In this document: piece by piece, positions 29,237 through 58,668 of the stretch | Position numbering within the stretch: the stretch's first letter is position 1 | How the letters are laid out: every line of letters starts with the position of its first letter | Assembly (NCBI GenBank): GCA_000002445.1 | Contig: CP000067.1 | Coordinates: 320,001-384,000 of the forward strand | DNA length: 64,000 nt | Direction: 5' to 3' | DNA from: Trypanosoma brucei | Taxonomy: Eukaryota | Program-made: the position numbers and the translations under genes | Notes under the pieces: generated by a model | Told to the model about the DNA's origin: nothing | Database searches by the model: none | What the model saw: the letters and a program-made list of their open reading frames with translations, nothing else

Positions 29237-31327
29237 TTATTTTGCTATGATGTTGACAAGCGGGGCGTCCTCGTCGTTTTCGTCTCCCGAAGCAGCCCCA
29301 GCTCCGTTCTTTCCTCTGGACCCGCGTTTTGAGCCACCCCGTTTCTTTTGCTTCTTCTTCTTGCCGCTTGCTTTCTTGCCTGTTTTCGCGGCTGATTTTT
29401 TGCTTCGGGTTTTTTTCTTCTTTGTACCACTCGCCTTCTTAGTGCTGCGCTTGGCACCACCCGACTTTTTGCTTTTTCCATTCGCCGTCTTCTTTCCACT
29501 CTTGTTCTTTGTACTGGATGCGCTCCCTGTCAAAGCAGTTGGGATGACCCGCTTCTTAACGAACTCCTCATATGCCTGTATTTCCTCCGGTGTGCCATAG
29601 GTATTGAGCCACTGGTATTGAACCTCATCTTGCTCCTTGAAGAATTGTGTCGCTGCCTCCTCTACGGAGCCGTTCTCGCTCACGCTTTGGGCGCGCCTGA
29701 GGGTATCGATGGTCCTCTTTATGTCTTCTAATTTGTACTTGATCGATTGAACGGACACGTGGAAAGTCTTGGGGATGGAGCGCTGATGGTTACAGAGCTT
29801 AGCGACTTCCGTATTTGCCTTGTTGAAATAGACGAGTTTGTCCGAAAGGGAGGCCTTCGGGTCCACTGGCTTTTCCCTAAACCACTCATCCAATGTGATG
29901 GAAGCGTTGTAGGTACGGAACACCTTTGCAGACAGGTCCTTCAGAAAGCTCTTCAGGTAGTTGTTTAGGGTCGTGGGTGTCACTTTTCTGAAAATTTCGC
30001 TGTCCGTTCTTTTTATGAAACTCCCCAGAAGCTTGTAAACTTCTGGCAGGACGGTGACCTCATTCACGTACCGGATGGAGTCTTTACCCAGAAAGTCAAA
30101 ACGCACCACATTATCTGGCCTTAACTCGATGTGCTCCTTGCGAAGGGAGCAACAACCCACAGTATCCGCTTCCTCTTCGCCCTTTTCATGACCTACACGC
30201 AACGCCAATTTATCGATAAAGTATGTTGCTACAGCACGCTGCCTCTCCATCTCATCCGTCGACGAAAAATCCTTCGTATAGGATTCCCGTATATCATCAA
30301 TGTGATTTTTCAGCTCGCGCGCTGTCTCGAATTTGGCATAATCCGACTGACCTTTCAGAGTTGAAGACGGCGCAAGCATCACATACTTGCACTGACCAAT
30401 GGTGGGTTCGTACCACATCGCCAACCACGTCACATTCTGATCGTGCACAACCCCCTTCCACTTGTGCCCCGCTGGTGCTTGGGGAATCGGGGCTTCTTTG
30501 CCTATATTTAACACGACATCCTCGGGAAGTATACGTTTCTTCAGTTTCCCTCGCATTGGGTGCTCTCCACGTCCACGGAATAAACCGGGTGGCTCCACGC
30601 GGAAGTTGGCCACCTGCTCCTTCTTGCCATTCCATATACACCATTTATACGGCTCCGCCTCCTCGTCAGCAATACGTTTCAGTTCCTTTTTCTCTTCTCT
30701 TGTGCGACTCTTGCGCTTCTCCACCTCCCTCTGATGCCATTCATATATAGCACTGAAATCACATAACTCGAGGCAGCGAATGGGATGCTTCCGTTTATCG
30801 AGTATCTCCCTCCAGCTCTGAAAAAAGTTCCTACGGAACACTTCGTTGCGGTAATAGTCGTGCTCTCGTAGGACAGCGAACATTGTCGCCACCTCTTCCT
30901 CCTCTGGGGTCATCTCAAACTTTTGCTGATTGTAAAGAATAGGAATGCCATGCGGAACATATGCCGGGGGAAATAACACACCGTTGTGCAACAGTGTGTC
31001 CCACCGCTTTTCCCCCTTTTTTGTTGTTGTCAGAGTCCCCTGCGTCCACCATTCAGTTTCCCCATCGTTTCCACCCCCCTCCTCGTTTGCCAGCAAAGCC
31101 GCCTTATTTTCATCGCCTTCTCTTTTCACAGCCCCTTTTGCGGGCCCCATCCCCGCGGCAACCATCTCCAGCTCATTTTCTTCTTCCTTTATGACAACTT
31201 TCTTGATCTTTTTCTCCGTCATATCTTCTTTCTTAACTACAACTCTCTTCCCATTAACCTCTTCATCTTTTACGGCAACCTTCTTTCCCTTCCCTTCACC
31301 ACTCTTCGGCTTCTGTGCCTTACCCAT
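29237..31327 (-). CDS. TOP1B-L: DNA topoisomerase IB, large (DNA-binding core) subunit of the kinetoplastid heterodimeric enzyme, ~696 aa
   Basis: The ORF-track start is GTG, immediately followed by ATG. Conserved topo I core: WWTQGTLTTTKKGEKRWDTLLHNGVLFPPAY and later DTVGCCSLRKEHIELRPDNVVRFDFLGKDSIRY. The long C-terminal Lys-rich tail carries no catalytic Tyr region, consistent with the split large/small-subunit enzyme of trypanosomatids. Confidence 0.9.
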   Translation of the reverse strand: MGKAQKPKSGEGKGKKVAVKDEEVNGKRVVVKKEDMTEKKIKKVVIKEEENELEMVAAGMGPAKGAVKREGDENKAALLANEEGGGNDGETEWWTQGTLTTTKKGEKRWDTLLHNGVLFPPAYVPHGIPILYNQQKFEMTPEEEEVATMFAVLREHDYYRNEVFRRNFFQSWREILDKRKHPIRCLELCDFSAIYEWHQREVEKRKSRTREEKKELKRIADEEAEPYKWCIWNGKKEQVANFRVEPPGLFRGRGEHPMRGKLKKRILPEDVVLNIGKEAPIPQAPAGHKWKGVVHDQNVTWLAMWYEPTIGQCKYVMLAPSSTLKGQSDYAKFETARELKNHIDDIRESYTKDFSSTDEMERQRAVATYFIDKLALRVGHEKGEEEADTVGCCSLRKEHIELRPDNVVRFDFLGKDSIRYVNEVTVLPEVYKLLGSFIKRTDSEIFRKVTPTTLNNYLKSFLKDLSAKVFRTYNASITLDEWFREKPVDPKASLSDKLVYFNKANTEVAKLCNHQRSIPKTFHVSVQSIKYKLEDIKRTIDTLRRAQSVSENGSVEEAATQFFKEQDEVQYQWLNTYGTPEEIQAYEEFVKKRVIPTALTGSASSTKNKSGKKTANGKSKKSGGAKRSTKKASGTKKKKTRSKKSAAKTGKKASGKKKKQKKRGGSKRGSRGKNGAGAASGDENDEDAPLVNIIAK

Positions 31328-31703
31328 CACACCGAAAGGGGGAGAGATATTATGGCCACTGTGTTTTTCTCTTTATTTCTGTGTGTCTGCACCTATCCCC
31401 ACGGCAAGTTGCGTCGCAGGTGGCAGCGTAAAAACACTAACGTGTGACTTCAAAGGAAAAAAAAAAGCGACAGAGCTACCAGCCGAGTGGAAAGTGGTAG
31501 ACGGAAATGGGAATGATTAAAGAGTATGATAGAGGCAGCACCTTACAAAAAAAAAAAAAGAAGCGTATAACACACAAAGGCACAACGTCGCCCGGTCTAA
31601 TCCCAGCCGCCAGCGCACACCGCAGAGCCCCCGACGAGAGCACGTCTCCTGAGCTAATCCCTTTTCCTCCTTCCACCAAAGAGACCGAAGGGAAACTAAG
31701 ATG

Positions 31704-31970: not shown

Positions 31971-34283
31971 CTATGCGCCCTCGTCAATGGGAGCCGGTTC
32001 AGCACCGTGAATCATACCACAGTCACACCAGCCCTGGTCAACAGGAATTGGGAAGAGAGTCAGGTATACTCGCTTCAGGACGGTCTTCAACCGCTCCACC
32101 TCGGTGGATGAGTAACTTGACTTTGTGTTTCCCTGCAGGTCAATTTCAATACAGCCCGTAATGGTGGCGTGTTGTCCATCCTCTAACTCCACGGTGCACA
32201 CCCCGGTGCCAAGGTTTGTGACAACAGATGGGTAGAACTGTGACATCATGTGGTGAAAGCATTTTAGTCGAAAAAGACGATCATTTCCACAAACGTCCAC
32301 CGGAAGCGCATCTGCGCTGCTTGCTGCATGTTCTTGTTGCATGAGCTTAATGAGAGCAATGCAAGTGACATCCGCAAGGAGGTCGTTGTGATGGCTCGAG
32401 GTCCAATTCACCGTGACTGTCGTCTGAGATCTCGTGCTCTGCTGAACATCAACCCAAACGTCTTTGGAAACCGTAATCTGCGTTGCATTTCCCGCACACT
32501 CCTGCTCCTGACCACCTCCTATGGCATTGGCTGCATCCCCTCCTTCCTGCTTCTGCTGTTCATGCGGGGTTACGTCACTGAACATTTGACTCTGCGCGAA
32601 GTACCGCTTCAGCATTTCGAGCACTTCGTGCGGAGACTTGTACCTTGGAAGCGGCAGAACTATGGCCTGTTGGATTTGCGCCACGTCCAGATCCGTGAAG
32701 TGCGGAATATCGGTTGGATGCACAACGCTATATGTGTGATGTCCGGACATTAGTAACACCCCGCTAATGAATTCGCCATCGCGAGGTGGGTTACGGGCCA
32801 ACGTACCTAATACCTTGGCTGTTCGTTGCACACTAAAGGGTATACGAATGGCTTCTTGGTTTTTGGTGGCGTATACCTGCACCCCGCGGTCGGCAAAGTC
32901 TTGTTGGAGTTTGTTTTTCAGTTGCCCCATTGCCCCAACGTTGCCATGTACAAGAATGACATGTTTTGTCTTGGGTAGAGCTTGGATGAAGTCGCGTGTC
33001 TGTCTGCCATCGGAGTGAGCGGAGAAGGAGACGGATTGAATTGTTCTCATACGGAGAGGCAGGACCTTTCCGTCTGGCTTGGTGATTTCCCTTGGTTTTG
33101 AGAGAATGTCCTTGGCGATGGTCCCGTCAACGCAATAGCCAGCAACAATAATGCCATTCCGTTTGTCACCGCACCACCTTTCAAACAGTTCAAGTGATAT
33201 ACCCGACTGTAGCATACCAGGAGAAGCCAACACAACGCATGGCCCGGTGTCTTCGAAGGAGCGAGTGTCGAGAAGTGACTGAATATACTTAAACACGAAA
33301 GGGTTTCGGTGATTTTCGTGTTGCTTCTTCACTCGGTCATTCATAGCACTGACAAATGTCTGGTACAGCTTCATGCATCGCTGGGCTAGCGAAGATGCGT
33401 AGTAGATGGGTATGTGTTGCAACTCCTTGTGTGCTTCCCAATATTCTTCAAGTATGAGAAGAAGTTCTTGCGCGCGGCCCAGAGCAAATACTGGTACCAA
33501 ACATCGTCCACCCCCCTTCACGACATCGTGCACCCACGTCGTAAACAGGGATTCCCGCTCTTCACGTGACTCCAGTTCGCGTATACCATTTGTACTCTCT
33601 GCAATGAGAATATCGGGCGAGTACGGTGGAACTTCAGCTCCCAGAAGGTGACGGTCGGGAACACGTGAGAAGTCACCTGTATATAATAGTTTCATCCCCG
33701 CAATATCAACCATGAAAAGTGCAGCCCCAAGAACGTGACCGGCATTGAAAGGCTGGAAATGAATACCGTTCACTGTCACCTCTTCGTGGTATTCCACTGT
33801 TTCAATCTTTTCAATGGTACTTTGCAGCCACTCGTTGTTCACAATGTCCTCGGCACTTGCACCAATGCGCAGGAAATCGTTCATCACCATTTTATAGAAA
33901 GCTTTTGTTGCGCTCGTCATGAAGATGCGCCCCCTGAAGGAAGTCTGCTCGCAAAAGTACGGCAGTGCTCCACAGTGATCGAGGTGAAAGTGAGTGATGA
34001 GCACAAGGTCAATTTCGTCACAGCGGATGCTGTCAAAAAATGGAAGAGAATCTAATCCGCTCTTCGCCGGGTGGTTCCCGCAGTCCAGCATAACGGAGCG
34101 GCCCTTGTAGCGGACAACCACACACGAACGGCCGACTTCCCCGCCGCTGCCGATCGGTAGAATCTCCACCTCGTCTGTGGATGGCGGCGCGGCGGCCGGT
34201 TGAGGTCCCGCTGCAAGATGGCGTGGGGAGGAGCTGTCAAGCACATGTACGCCGGGTGCGCTGTACGCCGCGTGTGAAAACAT
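31971..34283 (-). CDS. CPSF3: Cleavage and polyadenylation specificity factor 73-kDa subunit (CPSF3; metallo-beta-lactamase/beta-CASP endonuclease), 770 aa
   Basis: ATG start. Contains the MBL motif LITHFHLDHCGALPYF, the beta-CASP region and the CPSF73 C-terminal domain. The N-terminal core LPIGSGGEVGRSCVVVRYKGRSVMLDCG is highly conserved. Confidence 0.92.
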   Translation of the reverse strand: MFSHAAYSAPGVHVLDSSSPRHLAAGPQPAAAPPSTDEVEILPIGSGGEVGRSCVVVRYKGRSVMLDCGNHPAKSGLDSLPFFDSIRCDEIDLVLITHFHLDHCGALPYFCEQTSFRGRIFMTSATKAFYKMVMNDFLRIGASAEDIVNNEWLQSTIEKIETVEYHEEVTVNGIHFQPFNAGHVLGAALFMVDIAGMKLLYTGDFSRVPDRHLLGAEVPPYSPDILIAESTNGIRELESREERESLFTTWVHDVVKGGGRCLVPVFALGRAQELLLILEEYWEAHKELQHIPIYYASSLAQRCMKLYQTFVSAMNDRVKKQHENHRNPFVFKYIQSLLDTRSFEDTGPCVVLASPGMLQSGISLELFERWCGDKRNGIIVAGYCVDGTIAKDILSKPREITKPDGKVLPLRMRTIQSVSFSAHSDGRQTRDFIQALPKTKHVILVHGNVGAMGQLKNKLQQDFADRGVQVYATKNQEAIRIPFSVQRTAKVLGTLARNPPRDGEFISGVLLMSGHHTYSVVHPTDIPHFTDLDVAQIQQAIVLPLPRYKSPHEVLEMLKRYFAQSQMFSDVTPHEQQKQEGGDAANAIGGGQEQECAGNATQITVSKDVWVDVQQSTRSQTTVTVNWTSSHHNDLLADVTCIALIKLMQQEHAASSADALPVDVCGNDRLFRLKCFHHMMSQFYPSVVTNLGTGVCTVELEDGQHATITGCIEIDLQGNTKSSYSSTEVERLKTVLKRVYLTLFPIPVDQGWCDCGMIHGAEPAPIDEGA

Positions 34284-34576: not shown

Positions 34577-36010
34577 CTACCCCGTGTCGTTCCGCTTGGT
34601 GGAAGTGTAAATGGCGCGTTGTACAGCCATTGATGCGTACGGTTTCCCCTGGAATTCCTCTAAAACACACCTCTTCAGCGACAGAAGTGCGTTAACCTTT
34701 TTCTCGATGGTGACGGTTGACGGAACCGTGCACGCACGTAAATGCAACGGTGCTTTTGTTTCCATGCTAGTCACCTTCATGTAGACATCATCTGCTACAA
34801 CACAACTTCGAAGCCTCCTTGCCCCATTTCTGGCCTGAGCGACGGTGTCGCAGTAATTAGATGTCGCAATCGCGGACTGTTCCCCAGTTTGATTCGCCGT
34901 TCTTTGAACCGATAATATCATATCCAGGGACCTTTCTGTGTATTCATGACCGACGTAAATTAGGACATCGTCCGTGTGTATAATATCACCGGTTGCGGGG
35001 TGCACCCATGTGCGATTATTGTTGAAAATGTCCACAGTTTCGAGTGTTTCATCGACTGATGTAGCCTCAAAGAGGGCACCGCAACCCCCACAAAATACGC
35101 AGTCACCTGTGAAGAGTGCAAGCCGCTGCGGCTCACCTTCCTTTGGTAGCGCGTCTCCAACCAAAAACATAACGGACCCGCCGGTGTGGCCCGGGGTCGA
35201 CAGCACCACGACTTTGGCACCACCACCTGCAACAACCAGCTCATCACTACCCTTAATTAATTTATTGCAGGCGTGCGGCCTGTCCACCTCTGAGCCGTAG
35301 ATGTTAAGCTCCGGGGAGAGTAGCGCGCGGCACCTCTCACTACTGCATTGTGACAGGGCACGCATCTCCATGTTTCCACCGGCGTGGTCCCAATGCTTGT
35401 GGGTGGTGAGGATGTCTGTTATCATAAAATCAATTTGCGTGAGGTTCCGCACAACTTCCAGCATATTAAGTACAAGCGTTGGATCAGCAGGATCAACTAC
35501 GGCGCACCGCTTCGTTTTGCAACTCAGAATAAAGTAGGCGTAATTATCCAGTAGCACTGGCACCGGCATAACAAACACACCGTCATAGCATCCTTCCCGG
35601 CACTTCTCCCCAAGATGCTTCAGGTCCACCGTCCCGCCACCCCGCGTATGAAACTCGGAACCTTCCAACACATGAGGAGGGAAGGGACATCGGGTGATGA
35701 TGTTCCCGCTAAGACACCGCACGCCGTGGCGGTAGTCCGAATGCGGGACAGAGTAACGTTTGTGTATGAGGAATCGCAGCCACCTATAACCAACGAGCTC
35801 AGAACAGTAAAGATTGTACAAACACACGAAGAGATTCAACCTGAACCAAACAGGGGGGAAGTACGCGTTGGCTGGTATGAGTCCCAGCAAGCAAGTTGCA
35901 GCGGTGCCGATGACAAGTTGCGTAGCGCTCGCAATAGACGTAACGTAGAGAAAAATAGTGACCGCAACCATGAGAGACGGCCCGACGAACTGCTTCACGC
36001 TTTCCATCAT
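34577..36010 (-). CDS. Hydroxyacylglutathione hydrolase (glyoxalase II)-like metallo-beta-lactamase with an N-terminal extension of 2-3 predicted TM helices, 477 aa
   Basis: ATG start. TTHKHWDHAGGN matches the GLO2 THxHxDH motif (human HAGH: TTHHHWDHAGGN), with downstream GHTxGS and HEYT elements. The N-terminal ~110 aa is hydrophobic (LMVAVTIFLYVTSIASA..., LNLFVCLYNLYC). Confidence 0.7.
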   Translation of the reverse strand: MMESVKQFVGPSLMVAVTIFLYVTSIASATQLVIGTAATCLLGLIPANAYFPPVWFRLNLFVCLYNLYCSELVGYRWLRFLIHKRYSVPHSDYRHGVRCLSGNIITRCPFPPHVLEGSEFHTRGGGTVDLKHLGEKCREGCYDGVFVMPVPVLLDNYAYFILSCKTKRCAVVDPADPTLVLNMLEVVRNLTQIDFMITDILTTHKHWDHAGGNMEMRALSQCSSERCRALLSPELNIYGSEVDRPHACNKLIKGSDELVVAGGGAKVVVLSTPGHTGGSVMFLVGDALPKEGEPQRLALFTGDCVFCGGCGALFEATSVDETLETVDIFNNNRTWVHPATGDIIHTDDVLIYVGHEYTERSLDMILSVQRTANQTGEQSAIATSNYCDTVAQARNGARRLRSCVVADDVYMKVTSMETKAPLHLRACTVPSTVTIEKKVNALLSLKRCVLEEFQGKPYASMAVQRAIYTSTKRNDTG

Positions 36011-36651
36011 TGCCGGAGACTAAGCGGAGAGTTGGCACCTTCCCCCTTACTACTACTACGTTTAACTGCGGGTGCTTATCAAAGAACAAACTGTGAGTGC
36101 GGGAGGCGTGTGAATAACCAACTGGCAAAGGTCCAGTCGTGCATTCATGTTGTTCCCCCCTCTCTTTTTGCTGTCGATAAGGGCAATTCTTCCGCCCACC
36201 GACCACTAATACTCAAAGGCAGCGCCTCCGCCTCATCTGCGGGTCATTACAACTGTGCCACTGACCACTGGAACGTTCATCGGTCGTATAGCATTATGCT
36301 CGAGATAAATCTAAAACGAAAAAACACCTGAAAAATAACTGATTCCTCCCTAGCTTGTCTATCACATCCCCCTCCACCACTTGAACCTAAACAACCAGTT
36401 GAAAAAAAAACAACTTCCTCAACTAAATAATGCGTTAAAAGGACCACAAACCCATTTTCCTTTACTCGTCGTCTTCGTGTTACGTTTCCCCCCTTGCAAA
36501 ATGCGCCCCATTGACTTAGTACCTCTTTCCACCTCTCTACCCGGGCTCAGCGGCCTTCGCGAACGTGAAAAAACGAACCAACTGGCTATCACACACAAGG
36601 AGGATCCTGCTATGTTTTCCTTTATCCTCCCTGCCTTATTCACTTTTTTTT

Positions 36652-40413: not shown

Positions 40414-43218
40414 TCAAGGATTACCTTCGACCTCAGGCAGCGCGGTCTTGCGGTAGCGTGCGTAATACAGGACTGTTATTGCTGCAGTGATGGCAACCAG
40501 CAAAGCATCCACCGCTCCAAGAGCAATGAGTGGCACTCTCAAGCGGAGCATACCCGATACCATTCGAGACTGCTGCGTCACATCGGCGCCCTCGTCGTGT
40601 CCTCCTTCATGGGGCTTCTTCGCACCTTCATTACGACCTTCGTCGTTGTCGTCATCATCTGCTCTGTGGCCTTCTGTATTATTTCGCGGGGCAAGAAAGA
40701 AGGTGACGTTAGATACATCGCTTGCGATAAAAAGGTGCCTGGAGCCCGCGCAGCTTGTGTGATGGACACCTTCTTCTGTTGTACAGAAGTCAACAATTTG
40801 TGTTGTCACCACTAGTTCTGAGATATTGTTGGATTTGACGCCAACCGTATGCATGGCGCGTCCGACGGCGATGTTTCCACTAAACGCTTCTCCCACCGTG
40901 GTGACATTTCCATGGCATTTGAACGTTACCTTCACTGCGAGGCGCATTCTCTCAACCACCGGCTTCATTAGCTTACCCAACTCCTTTGCTTTCGCCCCGT
41001 TGGTCCAAACTGACCTCTTAAGAATATGCCACATCGCATTTGTGAGCGGCGTGTATGCATGTGTGCCGATGCGTACAGAGACGTCCTGCCCATGAGTGAC
41101 GCAGAGAGCGATGCCAACACTGCCAGGGTCGTTACGCACCTCGCTCGTGCAGTTCGCAAGTTGCTCAACTGCCATTGCATTCGCTGATGATTGCTGCACG
41201 GGGAGGGCAGTGTTCCTCAACTCCGCTACAGGGGGTAAAACCAGCAGTGTGCCCGCCTGCACCACAGGTGAGTCGCTATACTTTGGGTTTACCACCTTCG
41301 TGCTGAAGTTGCACTGGTCTCCACCGAACGCCGCTGAGGTGTCCAGACTGATTGTAGTATTCGATGTGGTGAAGATGTACGTGTTGCGCTCCACTGGGAG
41401 GTCGACAAGCTCAGTCTTGGAAGAATTACTCTGTGTGGATGTTATGACTGCTTTAAACTCCGTTAGCCCCTTTGTGCACTCAATCAGCACTTTTACTTGG
41501 TCTCCATCCTCAGCATTCGGTGGCGCTTTCACCACAAGCAAAGGCACCAACTGGCCATTGTCCCTATTGGCAACCCTGACGCCCATCGGCCCGCCAAGCC
41601 ACTTCCACTTAGCTTTTATTGGATACCGCCCCCTTTTGGTCATGCAGCCCATGAGGGTTGGGTAGGAGGCACTGCTGCAGCGACAACCACCCTCACCGTC
41701 GCTGAAGGATCCCGGCGGGCAGACGACACATGGCTCTCGTGTGCTCCAAAGGTTTCCACTCGCACGAGTAAAGCCCCACGGACATGGCGTTCCTGCATAG
41801 GATTCCATCCCTTCTCCTCCAGCGACCCACTTATATTTGCTGGGAGGTGCTTCATTGTCGGTGGATTTCATTCGAGATTGGTTATACGCCGGTGAATAAC
41901 AATCGAAGAGTGAGGGTTGCGGCGGCAAACCGTCCCTACCGGTGATGCGGAGGATACTACGAGTCACGCATTCGGCGAGTGCCAGACCGCCCCCAAACCT
42001 CCCCGTTTCCGCTGAATGGTCGAGTGTATAATTGAGAATGTATGCGAACTGCTTCATGGTGTAACTGCGGTACTTGGGACTCATTGTAGTTACGGTGCTA
42101 AGTTCCTCGAATCGAGCCCAAGGCCAGAGTGTTTCCGTATTAGCTTCACCCGTTATGTTTTGATACAACAGACGTACAGGGAAGTCATCGTGTAGCATCA
42201 TTGCAACGGCAAGCGACACCGCTGCGCAGGGGAGGTGACTAACATTAGGATAACGCTCCTTGCTGCTCTCGTTCACCTTTGTTCCACGAAAGAAGGTTAG
42301 CAACTCTGAATACGAGCGACCGTGAACGCCAGGGATGTACAAATTACGATCTGTTATAGGCATCCAATCGTCTATCCTTTCCGCAACGTTACAACAGACG
42401 TCCATTGAAAGCAAAGTTCCATTACCGACGGCTGTGAAGGTGGGAACCTGGCGGTCCACTTTCCCAATGGACGTCTTCAGCCACTGCTTAACAATTTTCC
42501 ATTTTCGCATTGCGGCAGAATAGGCTTCCTTCACCATCTGTGTCCCCCTAGCGCTCACGGCGTGGCGAAAGGCTTGCTGGTCCTCTTCGGTAGTGTTCAG
42601 CTTCCACCCTCGACGTGCAATTTCAAACAACTCAGCCCCCGCCTTGTTGAACTCCTTGTTTAACCGAATAGCGCGGCGCAACTCCTCACGCTGCGGGCGG
42701 ATGTACAAAATATCTTCAACAAGAACGCTAGCCCCGTTTTCAAACACTTTTGTCGATTCGGCCACCGGACTCCTCTGGTTCACACGGTACGCCCAATACA
42801 TTGTGGAGCTCTCAATATCCATTCCGCACTGTTTCGGCAGCGACTGCAGCGATGCGGCACAAACTTCTCCATCCTCGTCGTACTTCGTGTAGCAGCCCTC
42901 TACCATATTAAGATCCAACATGGTGCCGCTCCATGGCATCCCTTGTTGCACCCTTCTGTGCATGCTGTCTAACTTCTTCAAAGTAATGGGAAATACCATA
43001 CGCGGTGTGATATTGGCTGTTGTTCCGCACACCGCCGCCCCACTCTCGCTGTTTCCTGAAGTGTAGAGGAGTCCGTCATCATACGCCAGTAAGGGCGCGA
43101 TGTTTGACTCTACAAGTTCTTCCACTTCCGGCACAAATCCATCATAGTGCAGAATATCCACAGCCTTCGCGACGACGCTACCAAACAACAGAAGCAACGC
43201 GAGGGACGGTGACATCAT
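40414..43218 (-). CDS. Large type I membrane glycoprotein (signal peptide, ~880-aa lumenal/extracellular domain, single C-terminal TM, ~15-aa cytoplasmic tail), 934 aa
   Basis: ATG start. N-terminal MMSPSLALLLLFGSVVAKA; C-terminal LIALGAVDALLVAITAAITVLYYARYRK. At least 15 NxS/T sequons and a Cys-rich module EPCVVCPPGSFSDGEGGCRCSS. No cyclase or peptidase motif. Confidence 0.7.
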   Translation of the reverse strand: MMSPSLALLLLFGSVVAKAVDILHYDGFVPEVEELVESNIAPLLAYDDGLLYTSGNSESGAAVCGTTANITPRMVFPITLKKLDSMHRRVQQGMPWSGTMLDLNMVEGCYTKYDEDGEVCAASLQSLPKQCGMDIESSTMYWAYRVNQRSPVAESTKVFENGASVLVEDILYIRPQREELRRAIRLNKEFNKAGAELFEIARRGWKLNTTEEDQQAFRHAVSARGTQMVKEAYSAAMRKWKIVKQWLKTSIGKVDRQVPTFTAVGNGTLLSMDVCCNVAERIDDWMPITDRNLYIPGVHGRSYSELLTFFRGTKVNESSKERYPNVSHLPCAAVSLAVAMMLHDDFPVRLLYQNITGEANTETLWPWARFEELSTVTTMSPKYRSYTMKQFAYILNYTLDHSAETGRFGGGLALAECVTRSILRITGRDGLPPQPSLFDCYSPAYNQSRMKSTDNEAPPSKYKWVAGGEGMESYAGTPCPWGFTRASGNLWSTREPCVVCPPGSFSDGEGGCRCSSASYPTLMGCMTKRGRYPIKAKWKWLGGPMGVRVANRDNGQLVPLLVVKAPPNAEDGDQVKVLIECTKGLTEFKAVITSTQSNSSKTELVDLPVERNTYIFTTSNTTISLDTSAAFGGDQCNFSTKVVNPKYSDSPVVQAGTLLVLPPVAELRNTALPVQQSSANAMAVEQLANCTSEVRNDPGSVGIALCVTHGQDVSVRIGTHAYTPLTNAMWHILKRSVWTNGAKAKELGKLMKPVVERMRLAVKVTFKCHGNVTTVGEAFSGNIAVGRAMHTVGVKSNNISELVVTTQIVDFCTTEEGVHHTSCAGSRHLFIASDVSNVTFFLAPRNNTEGHRADDDDNDEGRNEGAKKPHEGGHDEGADVTQQSRMVSGMLRLRVPLIALGAVDALLVAITAAITVLYYARYRKTALPEVEGNP

Positions 43219-43819
43219 GATGAAGTAGGCGAATAAATTTCCACGTGTGTGTCTCGTTAACGAGATCTCCTCTCTCCTCGTATTAATGCACTGTTAAGGC
43301 TGTGCTTCTTATATATGCCTCCCACCCTAATTACAGTTATCTCAGGAAATCTGGCGGGAAGGCACAAAAAGGAAATAACATGGAAATGACTGAATGTGAA
43401 GCGCACGGTGGTAGTAATGGTAAAGCAGCAATACAAAAATAATTTTCAGCTACCAGCGGTACAAAGCAATACGCAAAACCAATTTGAAGAAGCCATCTAA
43501 ACGAATTCACAAAAGGAAAAAAAATGATGAAGTCAAAGAGGTGAGAAACAATACCTCTCTGCATGTCGGGTTAGGGTTAGGGTGCGCGGGTGCACACATT
43601 ATAATAGCATATAAAACAAATATTTCTGTGAGGAGTGTATAGTGGGTGGAGCGTGTTTATGATGACAATAATAAAGAAATAAGATATATGTGTCCACAGC
43701 AAGAGTGGAGGTCCGCCGCTAGTGGGTTAGGGTTAGGGACAGAGGTTACTCCTAGTTCTTCCTCGCCTTTCGCTTACTGATGTGAGTTCATGCTTGCCAG
43801 CAAAATGTTACGCAGGTCC

Positions 43820-45201
43820 TCATTTTCCTCCTGTGCGCCACTTTAAGAACTTTTCCAGCTCTTCCGAAGTGGTAGTGGGCGGGAATTCACGGAGCGCGCA
43901 CTCAAAATTCTCCCTACACACTGCCGGTACGTGTAGTGCCGCCGTAGGCACAGTTTCAATTGGTCGCGCTCCTTCTTCATCTTCGTCGCAAAGTACGTAC
44001 TGCGGGCTGCCGCTGCTCGACTTTTGTGAAACCAATTCATTGTCAGTCGGGGCGCTGTTACTCACAGTAGTGGTGGAAGGTCTGATAGGCTTTGCATACC
44101 CCGCCATTGAAATCTTCTGTATAGGTTCCATGACGGCACGTCGCGTTATGCGGCAAATATCTGATGCTGAGTATCCCTCAGTGGAGTTGACGAGCCACTG
44201 GATGTCCTCCTCACCAAGTTCACTTGGCACATGCCGTAGTTCCTCAACAATAAGTCGGAACCGCGCCGCCGAGGGCGGAAGCCCCACAAAGACGAGTTGG
44301 TCAAAACGCCGAAGAATAGCGCTGTCAAGTCCCCAAGGAATGTTGGTGGCTGCTATAAGCGTGATTCCATCCACATGCGATTTTTGCATGCGCAGAAGCA
44401 GTTCAGTTTTGACTCGCCGAGATGCTTCGCTCTCCCCGGCCCCGCCCCGTACGCCACCTATCGCGTCGATCTCGTCAAGAAATAGAACGCAGCGGGGGAA
44501 GGAGGCGGCCACCTCGAAAACGCGCCGCACCTGTCGCTCCGAATCCCCAATCCACTTGCTCAAAATGTCTGCTGATGACACGGTAAGCAGTGGTGCTGCA
44601 TACTCAGCCGCGGCCGCCGCAGCAAGCAGCGTCTTGCCTGTACCTGGTGGGCCGTAAAGGAGAATATGCCGGGGCGGGTGCCGTTTACCTTGAAACAGAT
44701 GAGGGAATCGTAGTGGGAGCACCGTTGCTCGTTTCAAGGCAGCAATGGCGTCCTCACAGCCACTCACGTCAACCCACCGGACCCTGTTGGTATTTCCATG
44801 CTCTTTGAGCCCATCGACACTTCCCGGTGGGTACAAAATGGCGGCTCCAAGCTCCTCCACTTCCTGTTCACAGCTGGAGACTGATGGTTTTGCCTCCATC
44901 TCGTACTGCTGAAGTTGCTGGTGTTGTCGGTGGCTAGAGGGAAAGGTTCCGTCAGGTGGAAGATCAATAACTCTGAGAAGGGTACGGGAAACGTGGGCGT
45001 AAATGGCGCAACGATGCGGCGAATCGTCATATGCTTGCATTAAAGAGGAACACTGTAGTATGGCGCGCAGTATTCCTTGGAGGCGAATGATTGCGTCCTC
45101 ACCGGCATTTCGGAAGTGACTGTATTGCAGAAGCAGTTCGCGCGCCTCCGTCACTAACTGTATGGCCTCTTCTGCTTTCTTCAGGTTGAAGGAATCTTCC
45201 A
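43820..45201 (-). CDS. Meiotic-clade AAA ATPase (katanin p60 / spastin / fidgetin-like), ~460 aa
   Basis: The ORF-track start is TTG; the first ATG gives MEDSFNLKKAEEAIQ..., an MIT-like helical N-terminus. AAA core [53 protein letters not shown], Walker B VLFLDEIDAIGG, and C-terminal helix typical of the katanin/Vps4 clade. Confidence 0.8.
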
Positions 45202-45565
45202 TGGCCGATCGAACTTCCAAGGGCGAGAGTTGAGAAAAGTTGTCGTTGTTGTTCTTGTCACACCTTCTTGGAAAATCTATTATTTGCCTGCCCTCTATCT
45301 GTGAATGCTTTTTTTTTGCCTCGCTAATGTAAGTGCACGTGAACGCACGTATATTATATTCGTTGGTGAAGGTAGGTGGGAGAGTTTTTCATCAGAGGGA
45401 TATCCACACAATCAAACGTAGGCGGGGAATATTCGAAGAACACTTCACATTTGAGAGAGAGGCAAAGTGTAAGGAAGAAGCGATGCAACATCCACAACCG
45501 GCCCATTAAGCGGTGACTATCGCACACCCCCACAAATTCAAGTTTACTTTGCCCCCCTCACAGAA

Positions 45566-47410
45566 TCATTCGCGCCCCCGCTGGCTCGATAACAAACTGA
45601 GAGTACGTTCGATTGCCTCTAGGCGTTTTTCTAATCTCTGCATCATCTTCTCGTTTTCCTGCCGCACAACTGCCCGCACCACCTCCGTCAGCCTTTCCTC
45701 GTCCAAGCCTGCTGCTCCACTTCGTCTCCACGGTTGTGGAATCTCAGATACCAGTGTAAGATCCCCAATGGTGCGCACTGTTACTTTCTTCGTTTCTCCT
45801 TTCGGTCTTGCATCATTACTAACATCATTAGAACCATGACAGCCATCAAGAAGCTTCCCTGAGAGCAGGAGCAGAGCATCCGAAGTGTCAAAGGGCCACA
45901 CTAACCCAGCCAAAAGACTGGACTCATGCTCAACACCAACAGAAGCCCGTGGCTCCACTTCACAATTTTCACATAAGCCAAACACAATTGCCCGCTCGCT
46001 ATCAAACAGACATAGCTCTCCCCCCAGCTTCCCTGGAGTTGTGTTCCGTGGGCGTCGGATCGTGGCGACCATGGTGGCGTCCCCCCTAAACATGCTCAAG
46101 GCGTTTTTGCACTCCAGAGAGGTCGCGAGGAAAATTTGAGCATCAATTGTGGTCTCTGGGCGCAGCGCTTCAGCACTCCCCTTTCTTTTGCCTGCCGGAA
46201 CATCAGTACAACTCGTGTTTCTTAATACATGCAACTTATCTTGAGCAACCGAAACAACTAGGATTTGTGGCACCGCTGCTGTCGGACTTAACTGCGGCTG
46301 CGTTACTAGTAGCAACGAACTAACGCTTTGCGGACGACCAGAGTCCAAACGGCAGACATCGTTCCACGATGGGAGCACAGACGAATAGTGTGAAGCAGTC
46401 GAGTCGCTTACGGTTTCCATTACGCAAAGGGGGGTGCCGTCTGCCATCTTCAGGGAAAGCGCACCCCGCTCTGCCTGGTCCTCAGCTCCAGTGTTTCCCA
46501 GTGCGCAAAATGTGACAACTCGTTCCACCTCCTCACCGCTCGTGGCAACACTAACATATTGCACACCAGCGGAGATTGCCATGTAGCGGGTGGTGGGTCC
46601 CATAAGGAGCGACCGAATAGCAATAGGCTTCTCTTTGACAGACGACCATTCAAATAGAACAACGCTTCCAAGCGTGCACCCAAGAAGAACCGCGGGACAT
46701 CCGTGGCAGTCTGACAAACCGGAAATAAGTTGAAAGGCTCCAATAGATAGCTCCCGGTGTTGATGACTCGCAGCCGCGGCGCCACCAGAAATTGCGAACG
46801 CATAACTCTCTGTCCGTATGTGATCAGTGGTAACTATGACTGCGTATCCGTTAACTGTCAACGCGCACACATCAATCGCGTGCTGCGGGATGCGGAGCAA
46901 GACGCTACTGTCACCCTCACACGTACCATCGCCGCCGTCATCATTCTCGCTATCGTTTTGCGCATTAGACGGCTCGCACAAGCCCGAGCGAAGGCACACC
47001 ACCTCACCAACAGAGCTCATCACGGCAATTGTCGTTCGACCAGCCCACACCACCTTGGAAATGCCCTGCGATGGCTCAGCACTGAAGTTGAAAGTGCGCC
47101 GTGCGACTGTCATTGAAGAAAGTTCCTCCCCGCAGCCGGCGGTCGTGACGGTCATGACTGTAAGCTCTACTTGAGAAGGCACTTCCGGATTCAGGCTTGC
47201 AACTGCCAGGGTGTTGAACGAGTGGTCGCCCTCCTGCGACGTAGAGGAGGAGGGCGCCATTGCCATAATTCCGGCATTCGCACGTACGCGTAGGCCCCCC
47301 GCCGGGGGAAGGCGAGCAATACCCCGCAATCGCTTCACCGGAACGGCAGTCCCCCTCTTCCCGGTTATGTGGGAAACTGGCGCCCCTCCCGAAGTAAGGA
47401 AGGAAAACAT
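45566..47410 (-). CDS. Hypothetical protein, 614 aa, with C-terminal coiled-coil
   Basis: ATG start; long ORF in PTU orientation. C-terminal EERLTEVVRAVVRQENEKMMQRLEKRLEAIERTLSLL is coiled-coil-like. No recognised domain. Confidence 0.55.
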   Translation of the reverse strand: MFSFLTSGGAPVSHITGKRGTAVPVKRLRGIARLPPAGGLRVRANAGIMAMAPSSSTSQEGDHSFNTLAVASLNPEVPSQVELTVMTVTTAGCGEELSSMTVARRTFNFSAEPSQGISKVVWAGRTTIAVMSSVGEVVCLRSGLCEPSNAQNDSENDDGGDGTCEGDSSVLLRIPQHAIDVCALTVNGYAVIVTTDHIRTESYAFAISGGAAAASHQHRELSIGAFQLISGLSDCHGCPAVLLGCTLGSVVLFEWSSVKEKPIAIRSLLMGPTTRYMAISAGVQYVSVATSGEEVERVVTFCALGNTGAEDQAERGALSLKMADGTPLCVMETVSDSTASHYSSVLPSWNDVCRLDSGRPQSVSSLLLVTQPQLSPTAAVPQILVVSVAQDKLHVLRNTSCTDVPAGKRKGSAEALRPETTIDAQIFLATSLECKNALSMFRGDATMVATIRRPRNTTPGKLGGELCLFDSERAIVFGLCENCEVEPRASVGVEHESSLLAGLVWPFDTSDALLLLSGKLLDGCHGSNDVSNDARPKGETKKVTVRTIGDLTLVSEIPQPWRRSGAAGLDEERLTEVVRAVVRQENEKMMQRLEKRLEAIERTLSLLSSQRGRE

Positions 47411-56505: not shown

Positions 56506-58668
56506 TTATTCTGAGTCACTACTCAGGTCAATCACTTCTTTGGCGTTTGCCCTGTCCGAACTTTTGTAACCACTTTGACACCACCTTCGGATAGCTGCTT
56601 GAGTAGTGGCAGCAACCGATGGCGGTTTCCTGCTATGAGGTCGGCCACGCTTACGGATCTGAGTTACGCTACCAAGCCTACAAACTGTGCTCATGACACG
56701 CTCCGGTTGAATATTCATCTCCTTACACACCACTTCGTTGCGTGCATTCTCCACCAAGTTCGGTAAAGAACCACTTTCATTTCTATTGTGCGTATCCTCC
56801 GATGCGGTGCTCTCCTCATCCTCCACATCCACACATTCGGGTCCTTTGCGGCTCTCACAGGTGTTTGCAGAACTCAACCCCTTACTTGGCTCCGCGTTCA
56901 AGCTCCGCCCAATGGCAAAAGGGTTCCGCTGCTTTTCAGTTTTGATGGACTCTTCTTGTTTAGCATCTCCAGGCTGTGTGCGTGTTTCGGGACTGTCCAC
57001 TGAAGATGCCCTCGCCAACAGCCGACAGATGGGCTGCATGTTGGAGTAGCGGGTGCGCAGCCGGGGGGCCTTTTCAGCAAATAAGGACTCGTGTTGCGCG
57101 AACGCTTCTTTTGACACCGTTGGCACCACGAGGGCGGGATTCACAAATTCCACAAAGTCAATGAGTTCGGAAAAGCAACAGTGCTCACTGTAGGGAATGT
57201 TCAGAAGCGACACGCGCTCATTGATTTTCTGTCTGGAAACCTTCGCAGCCCACCCGGTGGGATTCACGAAGAGGACGCCATCAAATTGCTTTAAATCCAC
57301 CCTTTCGTTTCCCCACAGACTAACTGTTTCATCACCGGTATCGGCTGCTCCACCATCTATTGCGGTGCCTTCTCCATGCCTTCTTCTCACTGGTCTGCCG
57401 AACGCTGGAGCCAGAGCACTGTACGTTGTTAAGGACAATGGGACGAGAAACAGGGCTAACGAGTATTTCACCCCACCGGTCATCGAGTCGGGGGCCACAT
57501 GGTCAGAAGACATTTCACCAGCAGTTTTTGATGTTGAAATCTCCGAGTCGACGGGTAGCTTTACCTCACATGTTGTGAATCGGCCTGTGCATTCCCCGCC
57601 GCTTTCCCCGTTTCCTCCCATACGATAACCAAGATAGATGTCTTGGGGTTCCTTCATATGGTGTGGCGTAAAGCGCTCGGGAAAATAATCTAGTTGCCTC
57701 ATGGCCTCGTACCTCTCCGGGGTCACGTATATTGGGGCGTACGCAGGCGCCCCATCGCCAGATTTCTTTGAGGGAAAGTTCTCCTGAACTGAGAGAGCAA
57801 TAATCTCCTTTCCAATGAAGTAGGATCCCACTATCACAGCTACTGAGACCGTCTGCCCCTCCTCCTTTGTTTGCATGTGCTCTTGGCTCTGGGAGTAACT
57901 TAGCCGGCGTTCGCATCCCATGATCATGTCTAATACCTCCTTATTTACTGTTTGAAAAATCGCGGCTCGGTCCGGAAACGTGAACTGCGGTTGGCAGTAT
58001 GTATTATCAAGGAAGAGCACATCGACGTTTCCCATACTCTTCAGCACAGGGTTGCTCCTGAGGTCCGGTTCCCAGCACCTGTGTTTGATGCTCAAAGCGG
58101 GGACAGCGGGTGAGCTGAAGCGAAAATCACCCGTGTGGAGAATCGTGCCGAAGTCTGCCGATCGAAAGAGAAACATAACTGCACCAGGACAGTGATTAGC
58201 GGGTATCAATTCCACTGAGAAACAACCTTCGCCACACTCTGCTCGTCCTTCCTCCTTCTTCACCAGATCACCATTGCGGAGGGAGAAAATATACGTCACC
58301 GCAAGGTCCAAGCATTCCACACAGGACCTCCGAACGCCCAGCTTCCAGCACAAAACATTCCCTGTGGCGCGGCTAGCGTAAATAGTTCCGTGCGACCACT
58401 TCTCAGTAATACCGCTGTAATGATCCGAATGGAAGTGCGAGAGAAAAAACAACCCGCGAAACGACTCTCCAGCGGGCCCTAACCCCGAAGACGCGCCGTC
58501 ACCGTCCGCTCGGCACGATTTCAAGTATCTGCGTGTGTGAACAAACGCATCAACAAGGATAGCAACCGACGCGTTCCGGTACACCTCTCTGGTGAGCATG
58601 TACTTTTTGAGAGTGTCTGGCATATCATCACCAGTGCGAGTCACCTTACCTGCAGCTCCACCTGCCAT
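56506..58668 (-). CDS. SNM1: DNA interstrand cross-link repair nuclease SNM1/PSO2 (MBL/beta-CASP with C-terminal DRMBL), 720 aa
   Basis: ATG start. GLFFLSHFHSDHYSGI (cf. FLTHFHSDHY), ILHTGDFRF, and the beta-CASP and DRMBL regions; the C-terminus is Ser/basic-rich. Confidence 0.88.
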   Translation of the reverse strand: MAGGAAGKVTRTGDDMPDTLKKYMLTREVYRNASVAILVDAFVHTRRYLKSCRADGDGASSGLGPAGESFRGLFFLSHFHSDHYSGITEKWSHGTIYASRATGNVLCWKLGVRRSCVECLDLAVTYIFSLRNGDLVKKEEGRAECGEGCFSVELIPANHCPGAVMFLFRSADFGTILHTGDFRFSSPAVPALSIKHRCWEPDLRSNPVLKSMGNVDVLFLDNTYCQPQFTFPDRAAIFQTVNKEVLDMIMGCERRLSYSQSQEHMQTKEEGQTVSVAVIVGSYFIGKEIIALSVQENFPSKKSGDGAPAYAPIYVTPERYEAMRQLDYFPERFTPHHMKEPQDIYLGYRMGGNGESGGECTGRFTTCEVKLPVDSEISTSKTAGEMSSDHVAPDSMTGGVKYSLALFLVPLSLTTYSALAPAFGRPVRRRHGEGTAIDGGAADTGDETVSLWGNERVDLKQFDGVLFVNPTGWAAKVSRQKINERVSLLNIPYSEHCCFSELIDFVEFVNPALVVPTVSKEAFAQHESLFAEKAPRLRTRYSNMQPICRLLARASSVDSPETRTQPGDAKQEESIKTEKQRNPFAIGRSLNAEPSKGLSSANTCESRKGPECVDVEDEESTASEDTHNRNESGSLPNLVENARNEVVCKEMNIQPERVMSTVCRLGSVTQIRKRGRPHSRKPPSVAATTQAAIRRWCQSGYKSSDRANAKEVIDLSSDSE

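What the first reader, a model, noticed from the sequence alone, without database searches (positions are those of the whole stretch)
40414..43218. 934-aa heavily N-glycosylated type I membrane protein with a cysteine-rich module and almost no cytoplasmic tail
It has a clear signal peptide, a single C-terminal TM, at least 15 sequons and a TNFR/ephrin-receptor-like Cys cluster (EPCVVCPPGSFSDGEGGCRCSS...CMTKRG). There is no cyclase, GP63 or ISG signature. Large conserved surface or endo-lysosomal glycoproteins of unknown function in trypanosomes are candidate receptors or host-interaction molecules.
Basis: partly seen in the sequence, partly recalled or inferred. Interest (0 to 1): 0.5.

Follow-up and report, generated by a model that had tools for sequence, protein, structure and literature searches.

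The report
Orphan trypanosomatid type I membrane glycoprotein
This is a real Trypanosoma brucei gene for a large, sugar-coated, single-pass membrane protein that occurs only in trypanosomatid parasites and matches no known protein family; it looks like a receptor without a signalling tail, and its function has never been studied.

Summary
The ORF is real but lies on the minus strand (40414-43218, 934 aa). It is identical to T. b. brucei TREU927 XP_844289.1/Q581U2, annotated 'hypothetical protein, conserved', on chromosome 4. There is a signal-peptide-like N-terminus, one C-terminal TM and a 15-residue tail. There are 16 sequons against 6.3±2.2 expected by chance. A six-cysteine module is invariant across the family.

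An exhaustive profile search of 1.84 billion proteins found 15 relatives; every one with a source name is a trypanosomatid (Trypanosoma, Leishmaniinae, Phytomonas), one copy per genome. No Pfam, PDB-sequence or fold match identifies an enzyme or a known receptor family.

An AlphaFold model (pLDDT 70) gives this order: α/β cap, long-helix bundle, TNFR-like Cys module, two β-rich Ig/FnIII-like domains, acidic disordered stalk, TM.

The cytoplasmic tails are not conserved. The protein evolves faster than its neighbours (37% against 55-74% identity, T. brucei to T. rangeli) yet is almost invariant within the brucei group.

My best reading is a non-enzymatic, receptor-like or scaffolding ectodomain that needs partners to transmit anything. 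Its presence in insect-only and plant trypanosomatids argues against a receptor specific to the mammalian host. Localisation and ligand remain unknown. Interest is moderate to low.

The parts
40414..43218 (-). Complete CDS of 934 codons plus stop. It is identical to T. b. brucei TREU927 XP_844289.1 / UniProt Q581U2.
43351..43375 (-). Candidate trans-splice acceptor: polypyrimidine tract at 43366-43375 followed by AG at 43351-43352, 132 nt upstream of the ATG. This is inferred from sequence only.
43162..43218 (-). Signal-peptide-like N-terminus, aa 1-19 (MMSPSLALLLLFGSVVAKA|VD).
   Evidence: KD19 peak of 2.04 and the AKA motif. A hydrophobic N-terminus is present in all orthologues.
42808..43140 (-). 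N-terminal α/β cap, aa 27-137, with four invariant Cys (64, 109, 120, 131).
41878..42807 (-). Long-helix bundle domain, aa 138-447 (helices 162-207, 211-250, 325-357, 367-400 and others). It has no sequence or fold relative.
41791..41877 (-). Poorly conserved, low-confidence linker, aa 448-476.
   Evidence: pLDDT below 50. (8-14% identity).
41638..41790 (-). Cysteine-rich TNFR/ephrin-receptor-like module, aa 477-527. It has six invariant Cys and is the most conserved part of the protein (65% identity within Trypanosoma, 41% to the Leishmaniinae/Phytomonas group).
41203..41637 (-). β-rich domain 1, aa 528-672, an Ig/FnIII-like sandwich. It carries invariant C581 and C636 and the motif SAAFGGxQC.
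40684..41178 (-). β-rich domain 2, aa 681-845, with an inserted helical hairpin at 727-757. C690 and C706 are invariant.
40537..40683 (-). Acidic juxtamembrane stalk predicted to be disordered, aa 846-894. It is largely an insertion specific to T. brucei (HRADDDDNDEGRNEG...).
   Evidence: gap in the other species. (pLDDT 27-37).
40462..40536 (-). Transmembrane helix, aa 895-919 (VPLIALGAVDALLVAITAAITVLYY), with an intramembrane Asp at position 904.
40417..40461 (-). Cytoplasmic tail of 15 aa (ARYRKTALPEVEGNP). It is not conserved among orthologues.

Best explanation
This gene encodes an invariant, single-copy type I membrane glycoprotein. It belongs to an orphan family detected only in trypanosomatids.

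Inferred mechanism:
- The protein enters the ER through a cleaved signal peptide, where it is disulphide-bonded and N-glycosylated.
- It then displays a novel N-terminal head (α/β cap plus long-helix bundle) on a stalk. The stalk is one TNFR-like Cys module, two Ig/FnIII-like β domains and a flexible acidic segment.
- It acts non-enzymatically, as a binding or scaffolding (receptor-like or adhesion-like) ectodomain on the extracytoplasmic face of the surface / flagellar-pocket / endosomal membrane system.
- Its tail is short and unconserved. Any sorting or signalling must therefore go through lateral partners, possibly through the polar residue in the TM.
- The family is conserved in insect-only and plant trypanosomatids. 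Its ligand or partner is therefore parasite-intrinsic or common to the shared insect stage, rather than a molecule of the mammalian host.

Shown here: gene, topology features, family distribution, domain layout, lack of any enzyme signature.
Inferred: binding role, location, dependence on partners.
For: Real gene and family:
- It is identical to the annotated TREU927 protein.
- Orthologues of 890-1020 aa have the same layout in Trypanosoma, Leishmaniinae and Phytomonas.
- There are 18 invariant Cys, all in the ectodomain.

Topology:
- Two terminal hydrophobic segments, and all sequons and Cys lie on the ectodomain side.
- Sequons are enriched over shuffles in 9 of 11 orthologues, but their positions are not conserved. 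That fits a general glycan coat on an exposed or lumenal domain.

Non-enzymatic, modular, receptor-like build:
- No Pfam family reaches threshold for the whole protein or for any domain.
- There is no PDB sequence relative.
- The Cys module aligns best to TNFR CRDs.

Function sits in the ectodomain:
- The Cys module is the most conserved part. Tails vary from 12 to 75 aa with no shared motif.

Exposed, fast-evolving but not antigenically diversifying:
- Identity to T. rangeli is 36.6%, against 55-74% for three syntenic neighbours.
- Identity within the brucei group is at least 99.4%.
Against: - There is no experimental datum of any kind. No paper in the library mentions the gene.
- It was not found in the held supplements of six proteomic or localisation studies. 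Those look-ups used a gene ID that I inferred and could not verify.
- The model is of moderate quality (pLDDT 70, pTM 0.48, 11-sequence alignment). Domain boundaries are credible, but the inter-domain geometry is not.
- Location is unresolved. Nothing excludes an ER/Golgi-resident or a purely lysosomal role.
- The TM Asp/Asn is present in only 4 of 11 species at the aligned column.
- The absence of a fold match does not prove the absence of catalysis.
Confidence: 0.4

Rival explanations
1. It is a receptor for a mammalian-host ligand, or a host-interaction surface antigen of bloodstream African trypanosomes.
For: It has a receptor-like modular ectodomain. The highest sequon counts are in the two African species, T. 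brucei with 16 and T. vivax with 19, which could reflect glycan shielding in blood. It evolves faster than its neighbours.
Against: Single-copy orthologues with the same Cys framework occur in monoxenous Lotmaria and Novymonas and in plant-infecting Phytomonas. It is nearly invariant within the brucei group. There are no paralogous expansions of the kind typical of host-interface families. It is not in the held supplements of the Gadelha 2015 surface proteome, although that look-up used an inferred ID.
Confidence: 0.12
2. It is an ER/Golgi-resident lumenal factor. Examples are a subunit or chaperone of a trypanosomatid-specific membrane complex for glycoconjugate, GPI-protein or membrane-protein biogenesis, analogous in layout to nicastrin, EMC1 or NOMO-type single-pass subunits.
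For: It is conserved across all trypanosomatids, single-copy and invariant. The large lumenal domain has conserved disulphides and a dispensable-looking tail. A polar residue in the TM of several species suggests assembly with partner TM proteins.
Confidence: 0.2
3. It is a structural or protective endo-lysosomal membrane glycoprotein (LAMP- or p67-like). Its role would then be mainly to form a glycan shield on the lumenal face.
For: The sequon load is heavy but positionally unconserved and the tail is short. Leishmaniinae tails end in a shared ...WPK(K/F)LL(T/L) sequence. The T. conorhini and T. rangeli tails contain LL after acidic stretches, and T. vivax has YFSL. These could be adaptor-type sorting motifs.
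Against: The T. brucei tail has no dileucine or YxxΦ motif. The 18 invariant Cys, a highly conserved CRD and a conserved helical head point to a specific binding surface rather than a mere glycan carrier. There is no sequence or fold match to LAMP or p67-type proteins.
Confidence: 0.15
4. It is a membrane-anchored ecto-enzyme or lumenal enzyme of a novel fold.
For: About 420 residues (cap plus helical domain) have no recognisable relative, so catalysis cannot be excluded.
Confidence: 0.03

Closest known systems
TNF-receptor / ephrin-receptor-like / ELAPOR1-type cysteine-rich repeats (Pfam PF23091, PF07699; PDB TNFRSF21, TNFRSF11B)
   Same: Residues 477-527 carry the C-P-x-G...C-x-x-C-P-x-G-S...C-x-C pattern. 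The best Pfam and PDB alignments fall on these CRDs.
   Different: Scores are far below threshold: 17.4 against 33.2 bits, and PDB E-values of 0.4-0.5. There are only one to one-and-a-half modules, not a tandem CRD array. No MRH domain (as in ELAPOR), no ephrin-binding domain or kinase (as in Eph), and no death domain or TRAF-binding tail.
Eph-receptor / class I-II cytokine-receptor ectodomain architecture (head, Cys-rich region, two FnIII domains, TM)
   Different: TM-scores are low (0.35 or less). No fn3 or Ig Pfam hit. The head is a helical bundle, not a jelly-roll. The second β domain has a helical insertion. There is no cytoplasmic signalling domain or Box motifs. This is an analogy of layout only.
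Helical-bundle surface proteins of African trypanosomes (VSG, ISG65/75, HpHbR, transferrin receptor, GARP)
   Same: It is a trypanosome extracytoplasmic protein whose membrane-distal part is built from several helices of 33-46 residues.
p67 / LAMP-like lysosomal type I glycoproteins and the IGP ER glycoprotein family of trypanosomes
   Same: Type I topology, many sequons and a short tail. Like the IGPs, it is restricted to the trypanosome lineage (PMC4497807 abstract).
   Different: There is no sequence relationship. IGPs are small (34-48 kDa by name) with lineage-specific paralogue expansions, whereas this protein is 934 aa and single-copy. The T. brucei tail lacks the dileucine motifs that (from my own knowledge) target p67.
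KIAP1, kinetoplastid-insect adhesion protein 1 (LmxM.01.0010)
   Same: It is a type I membrane protein of trypanosomatids with an extracellular binding domain (PMC11322530).
   Different: KIAP1 has a DUF2946 / C-type-lectin-like ectodomain and is reported absent from Trypanosoma. This is a different family.

Membership tests
TNFR-type / ELAPOR1-like / Ephrin_rec_like cysteine-rich repeat | Profile match above the curated Pfam threshold | tested here: not met
   PF23091 scores 17.4 bits against a cutoff of 33.2 and is found in only 2 of 11 orthologues. PF07699 is found in 1 of 11 at E 0.12.
TNFR-type / ELAPOR1-like / Ephrin_rec_like cysteine-rich repeat | Conserved six-Cys spacing with the CxxCPxG[ST] core | tested here: met
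   C479, C497, C500, C512, C514 and C525 are invariant, and C-x-x-C-P-x-G is invariant in all 11 sequences. The best PDB alignments are to TNFRSF21 and OPG CRDs but are not significant, at E 0.4-0.5.
ELAPOR1/2 family | MRH domain flanked by multiple TNFR-like repeats | tested here: not met
   No MRH hit or other ELAPOR domain hit. Only one repeat-like module is present.
Eph receptors / cytokine receptors | Ephrin-binding jelly-roll or cytokine-binding homology region, fn3 domains detectable by profile, and a cytoplasmic kinase or Box motifs | tested here: not met
Trypanosome three-helix-bundle surface proteins (VSG/ISG/HpHbR/TfR) | Sequence or fold match of the helical head to a solved family member | tested here: inconclusive
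   No such Pfam hits at E up to 10.
Type I N-glycosylated membrane protein (generic class) | Cleavable signal peptide, single C-terminal TM, and sequons and Cys confined to the ectodomain side | tested here: met
   Hydropathy, the AKA|V site, 16 of 16 sequons and 22 of 22 Cys lying between the two hydrophobic segments, and a layout conserved in 11 orthologues. No dedicated predictor was run, and actual glycosylation is untested.
KIAP1 adhesion protein | DUF2946 / C-type-lectin-like ectodomain; absent from Trypanosoma | tested here: not met
   No DUF2946 or lectin hit. This family is present in Trypanosoma. The KIAP1 description is from PMC11322530.

The most novel reading that the evidence does not exclude
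The cap-plus-helix-bundle head may be a previously unrecognised ligand-binding fold shared by all trypanosomatids. In this reading the protein is an ancient receptor or adhesin of the common insect-stage or flagellar-pocket biology. It could even be a distant relative or precursor of the helical-bundle surface-receptor families that African trypanosomes later expanded (ISG, HpHbR, TfR, VSG). It would work as the ligand-binding subunit of a multi-protein membrane complex assembled through its polar TM residue.
Probability: 0.08. Interest if true: 0.7.

Novelty: new variant of a known kind. Interest (0 to 1): 0.3.

Why it matters
If the reading is right, this is one of the few large invariant extracytoplasmic proteins shared by Trypanosoma, Leishmania relatives and Phytomonas, and it has a head domain with no known relatives. 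A protein like this could reveal a conserved piece of trypanosomatid membrane biology, such as a pocket or endosomal receptor, an insect-stage adhesion component or a biogenesis complex subunit. Being invariant within T. brucei, it would also be a candidate diagnostic or intervention target if it is surface-exposed.

At present it is simply one of the many 'hypothetical protein, conserved' genes. Nothing here overturns existing knowledge.

Tried and rejected
1. Word-index homologue searches with the single protein, the 3-sequence alignment and the 11-sequence alignment each returned only the same three proteins. The exhaustive profile search was what revealed the family.
2. The first AlphaFold run on 3 sequences was unusable, at pLDDT 36. 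The 11-sequence run was usable.
3. The AFDB fold library was unavailable. The BFVD viral fold search gave only noise, with TM 0.26 or less, so there is no support for a viral-fusogen-like fold.
4. The KIAP1 insect-adhesion lead was rejected. KIAP1 has a different ectodomain and is absent from Trypanosoma. The KIAP4/ARND family is NTPase-like and unrelated by description.
5. Internal duplication of the two β domains was rejected (blastp gave nothing; hhalign probability 0.4%).
6. Literature: no paper mentions Tb927.4.1380, 1390 or 1400, the UniProt or RefSeq accessions, or the orthologue locus tags. Only Tb927.4.1410 appears, and that is a different gene.
7. The held supplements of Gadelha 2015, TrypTag 2023, Dejung 2016, Urbaniak 2012, Zoltner 2015 and TUSK 2023 contained none of the IDs. 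Shimogawa 2015 is not held. These negatives are weak, because the ID is inferred and the files may be truncated.
8. A metagenome scan for free-living kinetoplastid homologues could not be run, because the alignments have no stretch conserved enough.
9. Per-domain Pfam scans and a helical-domain profile against the PDB gave only chance-level hits.
10. The antisense ORF at 41096-41665 (+) inside the gene is regarded as spurious.
Full report
**Observation.** The coordinates hold a 934-codon ORF, but on the minus strand (40414..43218). The plus-strand frame is riddled with stops. The ATG is the first in-frame ATG after an upstream stop. A polypyrimidine tract at 43366-43375, followed by AG at 43351-43352, lies 132 nt upstream, as expected for a trans-splice acceptor.

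Every ORF of 200 aa or more in the window is on the minus strand, apart from two that lie antisense to larger minus-strand ORFs. This fits one trypanosomatid polycistronic unit.

The translation is residue-for-residue identical to T. b. brucei TREU927 XP_844289.1 / UniProt Q581U2, annotated 'hypothetical protein, conserved', on a 1.59-Mb contig. It differs at 2 residues from T. equiperdum TEOVI_000472000 and at 5 from T. b. gambiense.

Neighbouring genes include PEX1, topoisomerase IB large subunit, CPSF73, an aldose epimerase, D-Tyr-tRNA deacylase, a Vps4_C-containing AAA ATPase and SNM1. The T. congolense fragment is TCIL3000_4_900. All of this places the gene on chromosome 4.

The published description of Tb927.4.1410 is of a 45-residue mitochondrial presequence with downstream in-frame ATGs (PMC3545838). 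That fits the 614-aa ORF at 45566-47410. By gene order I therefore infer that the target is Tb927.4.1390. This ID is an inference and has not been verified.

**Anatomy.**
- Only two hydrophobic segments exceed KD19 = 1.4. One is at residues 5-23 and is followed by AKA|V. The other is at 898-916.
- The TM is V895-Y919, with an Asp at position 904. The tail is 15 residues.
- All 16 N-x-S/T sequons (positions 69-846) and all 22 Cys lie between the two hydrophobic segments. Shuffled sequences give 6.3±2.2 sequons, and 0 of 2000 shuffles reach 16.
- The quoted Cys cluster is at 495-530.
- No dedicated signal-peptide or TM predictor was available, so the topology is a well-supported inference and has not been demonstrated.

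**Family.**
- An exhaustive HMM search of 1.84 billion cluster representatives gave 16 hits.
- Fifteen are relatives. Every hit that carries a source name is a trypanosomatid: T. grayi, T. vivax, T. congolense, T. cruzi, T. cruzi marinkellei, T. conorhini, Porcisia, Novymonas, Lotmaria and Phytomonas (T. rangeli came).
- The sixteenth is a marginal fish fibronectin-like hit at E 7e-4.
- Only one protein cluster was recovered for the brucei group, and no second copy was seen in any other species.
- An 11-sequence alignment shows 18 invariant Cys and the same signal peptide, ectodomain, TM and tail layout.

Per-domain identity to T. brucei:

| Region | Identity within Trypanosoma | Identity to the Leishmaniinae/Phytomonas group |
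|---|---|---|
| Cys module 477-527 | 65% | 41% |
| Linker 448-476 | 14% | 8% |
| Stalk 846-894 | 20% | 10% |

The Cys module is the most conserved region; the linker and stalk are the least.

- Tails range from 12 to 75 residues with no common motif. Leishmaniinae share ...WPK(K/F)LL(T/L).
- Sequons are enriched over shuffles in 9 of 11 orthologues (range 4-19), but their positions are not conserved.
- Synteny with the deacylase and the epimerase is kept in T. rangeli. The Porcisia homologue sits next to MLH1 in a different neighbourhood.
- Identity between T. brucei and T. rangeli is 36.6% for this protein. It is 58%, 74% and 55% for the three syntenic neighbours.
- The protein therefore evolves quickly between species, yet is nearly invariant within the brucei group.

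**What it resembles.**
- Pfam gives only a sub-threshold hit of residues 495-518 to TNFR_ELAPOR1_6th (17.4 bits, cutoff 33.2). Across the 11 orthologues this family is hit twice and Ephrin_rec_like once.
- Scans of individual domains find nothing above threshold.
- PDB sequence searches find nothing meaningful with the protein, the family profile or the helical-domain profile.
- A profile of the Cys module aligns best to CRDs of TNFRSF21 and osteoprotegerin on the CPxG...C..CPxG pattern, at non-significant E-values of 0.4-0.5.

**Structure prediction.**
- AlphaFold failed with 3 sequences (pLDDT 36). With 11 sequences it gave a usable model (pLDDT 70.3, pTM 0.48).
- The model has these parts, in order:
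  - α/β cap (27-137)
  - bundle of long helices (138-447)
  - disordered linker
  - Cys module
  - β-sandwich domain (528-672)
  - second β-rich domain with a helical hairpin (681-845)
  - disordered acidic stalk
  - TM helix
- Foldseek lists tandem Ig-like domains of PAD2, IFN-γR, IL-6Rα, transglutaminases and arrestins, with TM-scores of 0.35 or less.
- BFVD gave noise, and AFDB was not available.
- The two β domains are not detectable duplicates of each other.

**Interpretation.** I take this to be an orphan type I glycoprotein detected only in trypanosomatids. Its function lies in a disulphide-rich modular ectodomain. The layout (head, Cys-rich module, two β-sandwiches, TM) parallels Eph and cytokine receptors. 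However, it has a novel helical head and no signalling tail.

The most likely mode of action is non-enzymatic binding or scaffolding on the extracytoplasmic face of the surface / flagellar-pocket / endosomal system. Sorting or signal transfer would be delegated to partner proteins. The D/N residue in the TM of four species hints at lateral assembly.

Conservation in monoxenous insect parasites and plant Phytomonas argues against a receptor specific to the mammalian host, as do the single-copy status and the near-invariance within T. brucei. The fast inter-species divergence and the positionally fluid glycan load favour an exposed or lumenal endocytic-pathway location over a core ER machine, but only weakly.

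The rival readings remain open and are scored in the rival list: an ER/Golgi biogenesis-complex subunit, a LAMP/p67-like lysosomal shield, a host-ligand receptor, and a novel enzyme.

**Literature.** No paper in the searchable library mentions the gene under any identifier I could derive. Six genome-scale datasets, as held, did not list it. KIAP1, the known trypanosomatid insect-adhesion type I protein, belongs to a different family that is absent from Trypanosoma.

**Verdict.** The gene is already annotated as a conserved hypothetical. What this work adds is the family's restriction to sequences that, where named, are all trypanosomatid, the domain map, and the exclusion of known enzyme and receptor families. 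Interest is moderate to low unless localisation or partner data reveal a conserved receptor function.

Noticed in passing
window 45566-47410 (-): This 614-aa ORF has no Pfam domain. Its first 45 or so residues look like a mitochondrial presequence, followed by in-frame Met codons (…NAGIMAMAPSS…). That matches the published description of Tb927.4.1410 as a gene with alternative trans-splicing that would remove the targeting signal (PMC3545838). I used it as the anchor for inferring the target's gene ID.
   Followed up: partly
window 43820-45220 (-): The gene immediately upstream encodes an AAA ATPase with AAA_lid_3 and Vps4_C domains, making it katanin/Vps4-like. The ORF finder starts it at a TTG, so the true ATG start is probably internal. 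In T. rangeli the gene directly upstream of the orthologue is instead a weak VPS9-like protein, which is a local synteny difference.
   Followed up: no
window 40537-40683 (-), aa 851-884: T. brucei has an acidic, low-complexity juxtamembrane insertion (HRADDDDNDEGRNEGAKKPHEGGHDEGAD) that is absent from all other orthologues. It contains one of the few brucei-group polymorphisms (G865S).
   Followed up: partly
window 40462-40536 (-), aa 904: An Asp sits inside the predicted TM helix. The aligned column is also Asp in T. grayi and Lotmaria and Asn in T. vivax, but hydrophobic in the other species. It is a possible partner-assembly residue, and remains unexplained.
   Followed up: partly
L001 (Porcisia hertigi CM030527.1) 8001-10889: The Leishmaniinae homologue (21% identity, same layout) is not syntenic with the Trypanosoma gene. 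It lies between a 200-aa ORF without Pfam domains and MLH1, near a giant kinesin. In Leishmaniinae and Phytomonas the Cys module has an extra Cys where Trypanosoma has Trp.
   Followed up: partly
P0009 (T. cruzi C4B63_7g298, 227 aa) and P0016 (T. congolense TCIL3000_4_900, 250 aa): Some orthologues are annotated only as short fragments even on large contigs. T. cruzi has a 227-aa model on a 765-kb contig. These may be mis-annotations, assembly gaps or pseudogenes.
   Followed up: no
window 41096-41665 (+), 43782-44657 (+), 35615-36331 (+): There are long ORFs antisense to the minus-strand genes. They are most likely chance ORFs in a unidirectional polycistronic unit.
   Followed up: no
window 11823-14558, 29237-31330, 31971-34283, 56506-58668 (all -): The window also carries recognisable PEX1, topoisomerase IB large subunit, CPSF73-type endonuclease and an SNM1/DRMBL repair nuclease. 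These are useful landmarks for placing the window on T. brucei chromosome 4.
   Followed up: partly
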